Shown here: in pieces, positions 55,257 to 57,239 of the stretch
Layout: each line of letters opens with the position of its first letter
How positions within the stretch are numbered: position 1 is the stretch's first letter
Assembly (NCBI GenBank): GCA_003510435.1
Contig: DOMK01000006.1
Coordinates: forward strand, 1 to 57,239
Direction of reading: 5' to 3'
Length of the DNA stretch: 57,239 nt
From: Candidatus Magasanikiibacteriota bacterium
Lineage (GTDB): Bacteria > Patescibacteriota > Patescibacteriia > Magasanikbacterales > UBA922
Notes under the pieces: model-generated
What the model saw: only the letters and a program-made list of their open reading frames with translations
Told to the model about the DNA's origin: nothing
Databases searched by the model: none
Translations under genes and position numbers: made by a program

Positions 55257-57239
55257 TTACTTCTTCATTTTTCTAAGCTCTTTTAACTCATCTCTAAGTA
55301 TAGCTGCTAGTTCAAACTGCAAATCTTTGGCTGCCTCCCGCATTTTTTCTTCTTTATCTTTAATAATTTCCTCAATTGGCCTGCTATCACCAAGTAAATC
55401 CAATTCAACTGTTTTATTTTTCGTAGTTCGTGTTTTCGTATCTTTCGTATTTCGTATTCCAAATTCTTCCAAAATATTTTTTATGGTTTTTTGTATGGTA
55501 CGCGGAGTAATATTATGTTTTTTATTATATGCCAATTGAATCTTGCGCCGACGATCAGTTTCTTTAATCGCTTTTGCAATTGACTTTGTAATATTGTCAG
55601 CATACATCACAACCTGACCATTGACATTTCTGGCTGCTCGACCAATCGTCTGGATCAAACTAATTTCATTACGCAAAAAGCCTTCTTTGTCTGCATCCAA
55701 AATGGCCACCAGAGATACTTCTGGAATATCCAAGCCTTCACGCAATAAATTGACACCAACAATTACATCAATTTCTCCCCGACGCAATTTGGTAATAATA
55801 TCCACTCGTTCAATTGTTTTGATATCACTATGTAAATATAATGTTTTTATTTTTTTCTCTTTCAAATAATCATTCAAATCTTCAGACATTTTCTTTGTCA
55901 GTGTCGTCACCAAAACCCGCTCTTTATTTTTTATCCGCTCTTCAATTCTAATTATTAAATCTTCTACTTGAGATAAATTTTCCTTTCGTAATTTCGTACC
56001 TTTCGTATTTCGTATCCCTGTTATTGGTCTAATCACCACCTCTGGATCAATCAAACCAGTTGGACGAACTACTTGTTCTACTATCTTGTCACTAGATTTA
56101 ATTTCAAATTCACTTGGTGTAGCTGAAACATAAATCGTCTGATTAACTCTCTTTTCAAATTCTTTAAAATTTAACGGCCGATTATCACGTGCGCTTGGCA
56201 ATCTAAAACCATGTTCTACCAAAGTATCTTTGCGTGATTTGTCTCCGGCATACATTCCACCAATTTGAGGTACTGTGACGTGGGATTCATCTATAACTGT
56301 TAGGTAGTTCATTCCGATCCGCCGATGAGGCGGAGAGGAATCCCTTTTTGAAACAATATCATTTGCATTAAAAATATCTTTATTTAATTTGATTTCCATT
56401 GCATTAGAAAGGGATCTCTCGGCTTCGCCTCGAGATGACGCCAAAAAATAATCCAACAATGTATATGGTGGCTCCCCTGCCATTCGTCCATCAAAATGTC
56501 GAGAATAATTTTCTATACCATTGCAATAGCCAATATTTTTTATCATTTCCAAATCATATTTTACTCTCCGTTTCAAACGTTCGTATTCCAAAACTTTTCC
56601 TTGTTTTTTAAATAATTCTAATTGTGATTTTAATTCTTCTTTGATTGTTTTGAAAGCTCGTTCGCGCATTTCTGGACTAGCCACATAGTGTTTGGCTGGA
56701 AATAGCCACATATCATTGCTTTCTACTTTTACTTTTCTAGTCAATGCATCTAATACCTCTATAATCTCTATACCCTCTCCTATTTCTAATCTATATATTA
56801 CTTCTTCGTTTACTGGCATTACTTCAAACACTTGTCCGCGTAACCGAAAAGTTCCCCGTTTCAAATCAGAATTCGTGCGTTCAAATTGCATAGCAATTAA
56901 TTGCGCCAACAAATCTTCACGATTTAATATTTGCCCTTTTTCCAAATGCAAAACAATTTTTTCATATTCTTCTGGTGAACCAAGACCGTAGATGCAAGAG
57001 ACTGAAGCGACGATAATAACATCTTGACGAGTCAAAAGTGCTTGGGTACAAGCATGACGCAGGCGATCAATCTCTTCATTTATTTGCGCTTCTTTTTCTA
57101 TATAAGTATCACTACCCGGCATGTAAGCCTCAGGTTGATAATAATCATAATATGACACAAAATATTCTACGGCATTCTCAGGAAAAAATTCTCTAAATTC
57201 ATTACACAGTTGCGCAGCCAAAGTTTTATTATGAGCAAT
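55257..57239 (-). CDS. uvrB: Excinuclease ABC subunit B, N-terminus beyond the window end
   Basis: Helicase motifs ([17 protein letters not shown]…), C-terminal UVR domain (…[17 protein letters not shown]…). Carries a 135-bp in-frame repeat-element insertion just before the DESH motif and two TTCGTA-repeat insertions. Confidence 0.9.
   Translation of the reverse strand: [660 protein letters not shown]
55419..55458. repeat. TTCGTA-type short repeats in frame in the uvrB C-terminal linker (encode [13 protein letters not shown])
   Basis: tttcgtagttcgtgttttcgtatctttcgtatttcgtatt. Confidence 0.7.
55984..56016. repeat. TTCGTA-type short repeats in frame in uvrB (encode [13 protein letters not shown])
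   Basis: tttcgtaatttcgtacctttcgtatttcgtatc. Confidence 0.7.
56309..56443. repeat. Family-A element, complete copy, inserted in frame (135 bp, 45 aa) in uvrB
   Basis: Left arm cattccgatCCGCCgatgagGCGGagaggaatcccttttt. Right arm agaaagggatctctcggcttcgcctcgagatgacgcc. Encodes [45 protein letters not shown] between YTLLDYFL and YLTVIDESH. Confidence 0.85.

What the first reader, a model, noticed from the sequence alone, without database searches (positions are those of the whole stretch)
56309..56443. uvrB interrupted in frame by a complete 135-bp palindromic element right before helicase motif II
Translation reads …PYTLLDYFL-[[45 protein letters not shown]][22 protein letters not shown]…. The bracketed 45 aa are encoded exactly by the element's two arms plus loop. 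E. coli UvrB runs straight from …LLDY… into …DESHVT…. The same uvrB carries two further TTCGTA-repeat insertions. Either this UvrB tolerates three insertions, the element is removed post-transcriptionally, or the gene is decaying.
Basis: seen in the sequence. Interest (0 to 1): 0.75.

Follow-up and report, generated by a model that had tools for sequence, protein, structure and literature searches.

The report
Palindromic repeat translated inside uvrB
A 130-135 bp palindromic repeat, common in this candidate-phyla-radiation bacterium and found in many other phyla, sits in frame inside the DNA-repair gene uvrB and is most likely translated as a floppy, nearly unconstrained 45-residue loop, much like the Rickettsia palindromic elements.

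Summary
uvrB (minus strand, 55257 to beyond 57239) has 45 extra in-frame, stop-free codons (56310-56444) six residues before motif II (DESH).

The insert is a complete inverted doublet of two hairpin arms around an AT-rich spacer of about 60 nt. The window holds two more full copies, at least five single arms, and a related 144-nt copy in frame in uvrA.

The family consensus is TGTCAT-YY-CGA[stem]GAG-RR-ATCCCTTT...AAAGGGAT-YY-CTC[stem]TCG-RR-ATGACA. It is multi-copy in Magasanikbacteria, Gracilibacteria, Peribacteria and Woesebacteria. It also occurs in Fimbriimonadia, Anaerolineae, Acidobacteriota and Gammaproteobacteria MAGs.

A sibling genome (L060) has the same insert at the same site. uvrB flanks give dN/dS 0.07 and the insert 0.63, with indels only in whole codons. 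Only 11.5% of element frames in intergenic copies are stop-free. AlphaFold gives pLDDT below 50 for all three insertions inside a confident UvrB fold.

The gene is therefore under strong selection, and the insert is read through as a tolerated disordered loop. 29 of 121 related UvrBs carry inserts of at least 5 residues in alignment columns within this loop, which is a permissive hot spot.

Closest known: Rickettsia palindromic elements, with REPIN-like anatomy. I found no description of this family. How it moves is unknown.

The parts
55257..57239 (-). uvrB coding sequence. It is partial: the N-terminal ~60 residues lie beyond the window end.
   Evidence: ORF. PDB UvrB hits with E = 1e-210. 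Pfam UvrB_inter, Helicase_C, UvrB and UVR domains.
56310..56444 (-). The 45 extra codons (residues 266-310, [45 protein letters not shown]). This is the in-frame palindromic element. By its consensus termini it spans about 56309-56440.
   Evidence: pLDDT is below 50 for residues 273-309.
56408..56440 (-). 5' arm in coding orientation: GTCATCTCGA-GGCGAAGCC-GAGAGATCCCTTT. The closing stem is ATCTC/GAGAT.
56348..56407 (-). AT-rich spacer ('loop') of about 60 nt. It is the fastest-evolving part of the insert.
56309..56347 (-). 3' arm in coding orientation: AAAGGGATTCCTC-TCCGCCtcatcGGCGGA-TCGGAATGA. The closing stem is ATTCC/GGAAT. Its terminal ATG is read as Met310.
   Evidence: (D1).
55968..56015 (-). 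Second insertion in uvrB (residues 410-424, [13 protein letters not shown]), made of TTCGTA/TACGAA short repeats. It is absent from the sibling L060.
   Evidence: (D6).
55420..55460 (-). Third insertion (residues about 594-606, [15 protein letters not shown]) in the variable linker before the UVR domain. It is shared with L060.
   Evidence: (D6).
2465..2599 (.). Full intergenic copy of the same element. It lies 11-12 nt upstream of the ATG (2454) of an aldehyde-dehydrogenase-like gene.
24081..24201 (.). Full intergenic copy that fills the spacer between the HIT gene and the NUDIX gene. The HIT stop codon lies inside the distal arm, and the NUDIX ATG is 11 nt from the proximal arm.
34882..34937 (-). 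Single arm, 8 nt upstream of the glycosyltransferase start codon.
38269..38307 (+). Single arm immediately upstream of recR.
40104..40137 (-). Single arm immediately upstream of rplU (L21).
51194..51337 (-). Related palindromic element (termini TTCATCCTGA...TCAGGATGAA), 144 nt = 48 codons, in frame inside uvrA (50069-52822).
   Evidence: DNA fold z = -5.1.

Best explanation
The insert is one copy of a repeated, presumably mobile, palindromic DNA element. Its anatomy is REPIN- or MITE-like: two inverted hairpin arms around an AT-rich spacer.

It landed in the codons of a surface loop of UvrB, between the end of domain 1b and the beta-strand that carries helicase motif II. It added a whole number of codons and has no stop in the used frame, so the gene stayed intact.

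The element is transcribed and translated with uvrB and yields a 45-residue, largely disordered excursion that the enzyme tolerates. The peptide itself is almost free to drift. Selection acts only to keep it open and in frame, because the essential C-terminal half of UvrB lies downstream.

The loop is a permissive hot spot. Related candidate-phyla-radiation UvrBs have acquired, replaced and eroded inserts from this and other repeat families there, and at a second loop where this gene has its TTCGTA insertion.

Shown: the anatomy, the family membership, the orthologous copies, the selection pattern and the low-confidence structure. Inferred: mobility, since no transposase or target duplication was found, and actual translation and activity of the protein.
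For: 1. UvrB alignment places exactly 45 extra residues before YLTVIDESH.

2. The element is a family in this window. There are three full doublets, at least five single arms and a consistent consensus.

3. The genome-contig scan found the same architecture, with termini TGTCAT-YY-CGA...TCG-RR-ATGACA, many times per genome. Examples are Magasanikbacteria (9, 3 and 5 loci in three genomes) and Gracilibacteria (12). Peribacteria and Woesebacteria also carry it, as do Fimbriimonadia (9), Anaerolineaceae (5), Acidobacteriota and Gammaproteobacteria.

4. The arm-closing stem covaries. 173 of 195 arms are Watson-Crick at the two variable positions, in four states (83/44/22/21). Permutation gives a mean of 57 and a maximum of 78.

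5. The sibling L060 has the insert at the same site. Flanks give dN/dS 0.068 (516 codons, dS 0.66). The insert gives 0.63 (48 codons). Indels are of 1 and 3 codons only. L001, more distant at 75% identity, also has it.

6. Only 9 of 78 frames of intergenic copies are stop-free, yet every intragenic copy is open in the used frame.

7. In the AlphaFold2 model, pLDDT is below 50 at residues 273-309, 410-419 and 594-606, which are the three insertions. Neighbouring blocks score 80-97.

8. 29 of 121 close UvrBs have inserts of at least 5 residues in alignment columns within this loop, and 27 within the second loop. They are scattered over the tree, use different entry points and frames, and carry the peptide signatures of the arms: KRDSS, EESL, RNPL, LGMT/LAMT, RNDN.

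9. UvrA of three Magasanik genomes carries the element in frame at one site. The window's UvrA carries a related element at another site.
Against: - No proteomic or RNA data exist, so translation is inferred from selection patterns only.
- No target-site duplication, no autonomous partner and no empty-versus-filled pair at this exact site were found, so mobility is inferred from copy number and distribution.
- The insert dN/dS of 0.63 rests on 48 highly diverged, hard-to-align codons.
- Gene callers only report intact UvrBs, so the homolog set cannot show failed, frame-breaking insertions.
- A 45-residue loop six residues from the Walker B / DESH strand might affect ATPase activity. This was not tested.
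Confidence: 0.8

Rival explanations
1. The element is removed or skipped before the protein is made. This could be RNA-level excision of the long hairpin, or ribosomal bypassing as in T4 gene 60 or the mitochondrial byp elements. Mature UvrB would then lack the 45 residues.
For: The element folds into a stable structure (z = -3.3). Each arm is a hairpin whose stem covaries, which could be read as selection on RNA structure.
Against: If the insert were removed, nothing would select against stops or frameshifts inside it. Yet three diverged orthologous copies are all open and differ only by whole-codon indels, while 88% of frames in intergenic copies contain stops. No Rfam family matches: there are no hits at gathering thresholds, and below them only generic hairpin or miRNA-like hits. 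There is no take-off/landing codon pair and no stop at the 5' edge, as bypass elements have.
Confidence: 0.05
2. uvrB is a decaying pseudogene that is accumulating junk insertions.
For: There are three insertions in one gene. Candidate-phyla-radiation genomes are reduced and often lose repair functions.
Against: dN/dS is 0.068 over 516 codons against L060. The gene is 66-77% identical to 120 full-length UvrBs with all Pfam domains. DESH and the QTIGRAARN region are among the invariant or nearly invariant columns. uvrA is intact nearby. The fold is confidently predicted outside the inserts.
Confidence: 0.03
3. The insert has been co-opted. One version is that the peptide has a function, such as a flexible interaction loop. 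Another is that the element acts as an internal expression module. Intergenic copies almost always sit 0-22 nt before a start codon, and here the arm ends in an in-frame ATG (Met310). It could therefore drive separate synthesis of the C-terminal half of UvrB from motif II onward.
For: In Magasanik loci, 26 of 45 arms (including a few intragenic ones) end -2 to +49 nt, all but one within +22 nt, before the start of an ORF of at least 90 codons. The arm's terminal ATG is in frame in uvrB. The insert has been retained since the window-L060 split (dS 0.66).
Against: The peptide evolves almost neutrally (dN/dS 0.63), and only the DNA arms are conserved. No sense-strand promoter-like site lies in the spacer; the single hit is antisense and at the chance rate. 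There is no stop codon upstream of Met310, so full-length protein would be made anyway. In compact genomes any intergenic insert lies next to a start or a stop, so the positional bias may be trivial.
Confidence: 0.07
4. It is an assembly artefact: a repeat wrongly spliced into uvrB by the metagenome assembler.
For: The element is repeated, and repeats cause misassemblies.
Against: Independent assemblies (L060 and L001) have an insert of the same family at the same site with different sequences. The insert is exactly in frame.
Confidence: 0.01

Closest known systems
Rickettsia palindromic elements (RPE; Ogata et al. 2000 Science 290:347 and 2002 Genome Res 12:808, as summarised in PMC10969869)
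   Same: Both are palindromic repeats of about 100-150 bp and are multi-copy. A sizeable minority of copies are inserted in frame in unrelated housekeeping genes, at positions compatible with the protein fold. Neither has a transposase of its own.
   Different: This family occurs in candidate-phyla-radiation bacteria and at least four other phyla, not in one genus. The arms are autonomous local hairpins with a covarying closing stem and also occur singly. Most copies abut start codons. Sequence similarity to RPE consensus sequences was not tested, because no RPE sequences were available.
REP / REPIN elements mobilised by RAYT transposases (PMC3337134; PMC3733652)
   Same: The unit is a GC-rich imperfect hairpin of 25-55 nt. 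Units occur singly and as inverted doublets separated by a spacer, and the doublet can fold into a longer hairpin. The stem is conserved through compensatory changes.
   Different: REPs are extragenic, species-specific and carry a GTAG or CGTC tag. Here the tag is TGTCAT, the same ends are shared across phyla, and copies are tolerated inside genes. No RAYT gene was seen in the window or in the fetched loci, which were not searched systematically.
Bacterial MITEs with in-frame fusions (Coxiella QMITE1, PMC5896051; ERIC, BOX, Correia elements, PMC10969869)
   Same: They are small non-autonomous inverted-repeat elements that can extend or interrupt ORFs in frame and can sit in promoter or 5' UTR regions.
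   Different: No target-site duplication and no parent insertion sequence with matching ends were identified here.

Membership tests
UvrB (host gene) | Full-length similarity to solved UvrB structures, including motif II (DESH), motif VI and the UVR domain | tested here: met
   (E = 1e-210 to 9gy7_E and 2fdc_A). (Pfam). (D317 E318 S319 H320 invariant).
Rickettsia palindromic elements | Palindromic repeat of about 100-150 bp present in many copies per genome | tested here: met
Rickettsia palindromic elements | Copies inserted in frame in protein-coding genes at structurally permissive sites | tested here: met
   uvrB. uvrA. A methyltransferase-like ORF in L113.
Rickettsia palindromic elements | Sequence homology to RPE-1 to RPE-10 consensus sequences; Rickettsia host | not tested
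   No RPE sequences were available in the tools. The host here is a Magasanikbacteria-like organism, so it is not filed as an RPE.
MITE | Terminal inverted repeats, small size, no coding capacity of its own | tested here: met
   Termini TGTCAT-YY-CGA / TCG-RR-ATGACA, length 105-145 bp.
MITE | Target-site duplication flanking the element | tested here: inconclusive
   No direct repeat is visible at the uvrB junctions of the window or L001. Flanks of other copies only extend the palindrome with T/A runs.
MITE | A parent insertion sequence with the same ends that encodes a transposase | tested here: not met
   No arm pair flanks a transposase in 113 loci or in the window. The one 3.3-kb pair encloses dnaB, ybaB and an unknown ORF. 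There was no plasmid match. Whole genomes were not searched.
REP/REPIN | Hairpin units occurring singly and as inverted doublets, with stems kept by compensatory change | tested here: met
REP/REPIN | Conserved GTAG or CGTC tag next to the hairpin | tested here: not met
   The conserved flank is (T)TGTCAT or TAAT.
REP/REPIN | A cognate RAYT (Y1 transposase) gene in the same genome | not testable with these tools
   Only a 57-kb window and 8-kb loci are held. None of the 20 window ORFs scanned is a transposase.
Self-splicing intron or other curated RNA family | Match to a curated RNA family | tested here: not met
   No Rfam hit at gathering thresholds in the window. Below threshold there are only generic hairpin or miRNA-like hits.
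Intein | Splicing domain of at least ~130 residues, with a nucleophile at the N-terminal junction and HN plus Cys/Ser/Thr at the C-terminal junction | tested here: not met
   The insert is 45 residues. It starts with L-A-S and ends with I-G-M followed by N.

The most novel reading that the evidence does not exclude
The uvrB insert is the visible tip of an undescribed, cross-phylum family of hairpin-doublet elements. Their ends are TGTCAT-YY-CGA...TCG-RR-ATGACA, and each arm has a covarying 5-bp closing stem, a conserved GA/GA internal loop and a variable apical stem.

In candidate-phyla-radiation bacteria these elements routinely colonise both the 5' edges of genes and permissive loops of essential proteins such as UvrA and UvrB, and then erode in place. 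If so, they would be a general and ongoing source of the lineage-specific insertions seen in proteins of these bacteria. The shared ends across phyla would imply an unidentified, horizontally spreading enzyme that recognises hairpins.
Probability: 0.4. Interest if true: 0.7.

Novelty: new member of a known kind. Interest (0 to 1): 0.55.

Why it matters
[quoted passage not shown] Here the same phenomenon appears in an ultra-small candidate-phyla-radiation bacterium, in both uvrA and uvrB. The element's ends are shared by distant phyla.

It gives a concrete mechanism for how proteins in streamlined genomes acquire disordered loops: insertion, near-neutral drift, then erosion by deletion. It marks two loops of UvrB as naturally permissive for insertions of 40-60 residues.

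It also warns annotators that peptides such as KRDSS, EESL, LGMT and RNDN in metagenomic proteins are translated repeats, not domains. The covarying hairpin arms point to an unidentified recognition machinery worth looking for.

Tried and rejected
- Rfam at gathering and E-value thresholds on the window and on a Fimbriimonadia copy gave only generic long-hairpin (miRNA, AaHKsRNA41) sub-threshold hits.
- Sigma-70 promoter and terminator scans of two copies gave nothing above the shuffle expectation.
- I searched for an autonomous element, meaning arm pairs 250-4000 bp apart. There were two pairs. The 3.3-kb pair in the window encloses dnaB, ybaB and an unknown ORF. The 346-bp pair in L080 is too short to encode a transposase and was not examined further.
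- BLAST of a consensus-like copy against plasmids found no match.
- A strand-asymmetry test for RNA-level selection compared fold energies and G-U counts of arms in sense and antisense. The roughly 2 kcal/mol difference is explained by the conserved GA/GA internal loop and is the same for start-proximal and distal arms, so the test is uninformative.
- The metagenome scan for close uvrB siblings was swamped by the universal YYDYYQPE pattern and returned only relatives of 65% identity or less. It was useful only as a baseline for loop length.
- Full-text searches for the arm sequences, and for candidate-phyla-radiation terms combined with palindromic, MITE or REPIN terms, found no description of this family. 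The library covers open-access papers only.
- The DNA for the nearest insert-lacking UvrB (P0001) was first unavailable but was recovered through locus L002.
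Full report
**1. The observation**

The region lies in one long minus-strand ORF (55257..57221) whose frame stays open to the window end. Its product is UvrB. phmmer against solved structures gives E = 1e-210 to 1e-176 for UvrB chains, and Pfam finds UvrB_inter, Helicase_C, UvrB and UVR domains.

Every PDB alignment breaks into two pieces. Query residues 1-265 match B. caldotenax 63-329 and end in ...PYTLLDYF. Query residues 311-657 match 332-657 and start at [10 protein letters not shown]. The 45 residues between them (266-310, window 56310-56444) have no counterpart.

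The same alignments show a second gap of about 15 residues at query 410-424. The region before the UVR domain aligns poorly.

As a baseline, 48 of 52 scorable UvrBs from diverse metagenomes have exactly 7 residues between DY and the two residues preceding DESH.

**2. What the insert is**

In coding orientation it reads as follows:
- 5' arm: GTCATCTCGA-GGCGAAGCC-GAGAGATCCCTTT.
- Spacer: an AT-rich stretch of about 60 nt.
- 3' arm: AAAGGGATTCCTC-TCCGCCtcatcGGCGGA-TCGGAATGA.

Each arm is itself a hairpin, and the whole folds more stably than all 200 shuffles (z = -3.3).

The arm core GAGRRATCCCTTT occurs 20 times in the window at up to 2 mismatches, against 5.8 expected. Reading those sites gives:
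- two more complete doublets, at 2465-2599 and 24081-24201;
- single arms at 34882-34937, 38269-38307, 40104-40137, 2775-2812 and 1-23.

None of the 20 window ORFs scanned with Pfam is a transposase. The neighbours are housekeeping genes: HIT, NUDIX, L21, RecR, DnaB, UvrA and a ClpB-like protein.

**3. The family is very widespread**

I scanned one genome per GTDB species for ATCCCTTT-N40-70-AAAGGGATYYCTC.

After extracting flanks, a sharp consensus appears:

(T)TGTCAT-YY-CGA-[variable GC stem]-GAG-RR-ATCCCTTT-[45-65 nt]-AAAGGGAT-YY-CTC-[variable stem]-TCG-RR-ATGACA(A)

Genomes with many loci include:
- three Magasanikbacteria (9, 3 and 5 loci);
- a Gracilibacteria MAG (12 loci);
- Peribacteria, Woesebacteria and Uhrbacteria;
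- outside the candidate phyla radiation, a Fimbriimonadia MAG (9 loci), an Anaerolineaceae MAG (5 loci), Acidobacteriota, Thermoanaerobaculia and several Gammaproteobacteria MAGs.

Single hits in Streptomyces, Bacillus and Paenibacillus lack the termini and are chance matches.

The two variable positions of the closing stem covary. The pairings are AT-TC-CG with G-GA-AT (83 arms), CC with GG (44), TT with AA (22) and CT with AG (21). Overall 173 of 195 arms are Watson-Crick there, against a permutation mean of 57 and a maximum of 78. Copies within a genome are related, so this count is not a probability. Still, all four states occur within single genomes.

Each arm is therefore a conserved structure: a 5-bp closing stem, a conserved GA/GA internal loop and a variable apical stem-loop. 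This anatomy, with hairpin units occurring singly or as inverted doublets, is that of REP/REPIN elements. The tag differs, however: it is TGTCAT, not GTAG or CGTC.

No Rfam family matches. No paper in the searchable open-access library describes these sequences or any palindromic element in the candidate phyla radiation.

**4. Is uvrB alive, and is the insert translated?**

The window's UvrB is 66-77% identical to 120 full-length UvrBs. The named ones are mostly Candidatus Magasanikbacteria.

Locus L060 (Ca. Magasanikiibacteriota MFD12003) holds a sibling uvrB that is about 95% identical in protein outside the insert. It has an insert at the same site. A codon-level comparison gives:

| Region | Codons | dN/dS | dS | dN |
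|---|---|---|---|---|
| uvrB flanks | 516 | 0.068 | 0.66 | 0.045 |
| Insert | 48 | 0.63 | 0.96 | 0.61 |

The two inserts differ by indels of exactly 1 and 3 codons. Only the arm-encoded ends (SSRG...; K[R/K]DSSPP...RR[I/V]GMN) are conserved. A more distant relative (L001 / P0002, 75% identity) also has the element there, open and in frame.

By contrast, only 9 of 78 element frames (11.5%) are stop-free in intergenic copies from Magasanik genomes. Three diverged copies that all stay open in the required frame therefore point to selection for read-through. That selection would not exist if the element were excised from the mRNA or bypassed.

The strong purifying selection on the flanks, and the invariance of D317 E318 S319 H320 and many other columns, exclude decay.

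An AlphaFold2 model built from an 80-sequence alignment has mean pLDDT 76.9. Confidence falls below 50 at residues 273-309, 410-419 and 594-606, which are the three insertions, and also at short N-terminal stretches (1-5, 31-38 and 40-50). Adjacent blocks score 80-97, and strand 313-317 leads into DESH.

From my own recollection of the B. caldotenax structure (Theis et al. 1999; not checked here beyond PMC3458569, which places helix 257-277 in domain 1b), residues 329-332 lie where the chain returns from domain 1b to the domain 1a strand that carries motif II.

**5. A hot spot, not a single event**

In a MAFFT alignment of the query with the 120 homologs, the basal length of this loop is 6 residues. 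29 sequences carry at least 5 extra residues in alignment columns within this loop, and 27 within the second loop, where this gene has its TTCGTA insertion.

Insert-bearing sequences are scattered among insert-free ones. The entry points differ: for example, GHSAG-VIASE... in P0012 against L-ASSRG... here. The frames and closing-stem types differ too.

The peptides carry translations of the arms: KRDSS/RRDSS, EESL, RNPL, LGMT/LAMT, (P/A)(R/Q)NDN and VI(P/A/L)SE. Other repeat families also use the same loops, such as [8 protein letters not shown]-type short repeats.

The same element sits in frame in UvrA of three Magasanik genomes at one shared site (VVDRL|vipse...eesl...kgslasslgi|RLAEAVE). 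At that site the window's UvrA, about 95% identical to L060's elsewhere, keeps only a 13-residue remnant without arms. This shows erosion by deletion.

The window's UvrA in turn carries a related 144-nt palindrome in frame at 51194-51337.

Most copies are nevertheless intergenic. In Magasanik loci, 26 of 45 arms (including a few intragenic ones) end -2 to +49 nt, all but one within +22 nt, before the start codon of an ORF of at least 90 codons. Given the very short spacers of these genomes, this may simply reflect where an insertion can survive.

**6. Mechanism and rivals**

- **Best supported (0.8):** a repeated palindromic element inserted into a permissive loop and is translated as a disordered passenger peptide. 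Selection keeps only the frame.
- **Not shown:** how the element moves. I found no target-site duplication, no parent insertion sequence and no plasmid match. The covarying hairpins suggest recognition of a folded single strand, as with RAYT or IS200-type enzymes. That is inference.
- **Rivals:** excision or bypass (0.05), co-option as a functional loop or internal expression module (0.07), pseudogene (0.03) and artefact (0.01).

**7. Comparison and novelty**

Functionally this is the Rickettsia palindromic element phenomenon: palindromes of about 150 bp, many inserted in frame in housekeeping genes at fold-compatible positions (PMC10969869, citing Ogata 2000 and 2002). Anatomically it resembles REPINs (PMC3337134).

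I do not file it as a member of either family. The host and distribution differ from RPEs, and homology to RPEs was not tested. The REP tag was tested and not met, and a cognate RAYT could not be tested.

I rate it a new member of a known kind (an in-frame palindromic repeat). There is a reasonable chance that the family as a whole, with its cross-phylum spread, structured arms and recurrent colonisation of UvrA and UvrB loops, is an undescribed and more interesting story.

Noticed in passing
window 51194-51337 (-), inside uvrA (50069-52822): A second in-frame palindromic element of 144 nt (48 codons). Its termini are TTCATCCTGA...TCAGGATGAA and its core is GAAGGATCTTTCG/CGAAAGATCCTTC. It folds as one long hairpin (DNA z = -5.1). 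L060 and L068 carry different palindrome types at the same UvrA site.
   Followed up: partly
window uvrA, about 52070-52110 (the site aligned to the L002/L060/L068 element): Three relatives have the full GAGGAATCCCTTT element in frame in UvrA at this site. The window has only a 13-residue remnant ([15 protein letters not shown]) without arms. This suggests that elements erode in place by deletion.
   Followed up: partly
window 52347-52384, 55420-55457 and 55978-56015: There are three copies of a TTCGTA/TACGAA short-repeat block, all inside uvrA or uvrB coding sequence and read as IRNTK(D/G)TK-like peptides. The 55978 copy is absent from the sibling L060. P0010 has the same peptide repeat at the same UvrB loop.
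   Followed up: partly
whole window, e.g. 45001-45045, 25021-25092, 49480-49562, 16330-16415, 37008-37097: Tandem Repeats Finder lists 48 short-period (7-9 nt) arrays in 57 kb. Many are arranged as inverted arrays that fill intergenic spacers, and some lie inside long ORFs. They use different words in different places (GTGGTCAG, GATCAGAA, CACTAAT, ATTAGAA and others).
   Followed up: no
window 24176-24201 and 24189-24191: The stop codon and last codons of the HIT-family gene (24189-24593, minus strand) lie inside the distal arm of the intergenic element. The element therefore supplies that gene's C-terminal tail and stop.
   Followed up: no
Magasanik loci L003, L008, L009, L021, L028, L029, L049, L081, L095, L097, L101, L105 and window copies: One arm of most intergenic copies ends -2 to +22 nt before the start codon of a long ORF that reads away from the element. 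In some copies the element's terminal ATG opens the downstream ORF. This could reflect compact spacers or a role in the 5' UTR or promoter.
   Followed up: partly
L068 (Magasanikbacteria GW2011_GWC2_37_14), UvrA: This UvrA carries three separate in-frame palindrome-derived inserts of different families: SASLRGS...EARND, the vipse...eesl element, and VIPAKAGI...RLRGDD.
   Followed up: no
Contig of P0001 (CAILTG010000019.1), about 4 kb from uvrB: A 331-residue reverse transcriptase (Pfam RVT_1) gene lies near uvrB and uvrA in the closest insert-poor relative. No link to the element was examined.
   Followed up: no
window 24664-27084 (-) and 27069-29225 (+): Two long ORFs of 806 and 718 residues have no Pfam match at E <= 0.01. 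The first contains inverted heptamer arrays.
   Followed up: no
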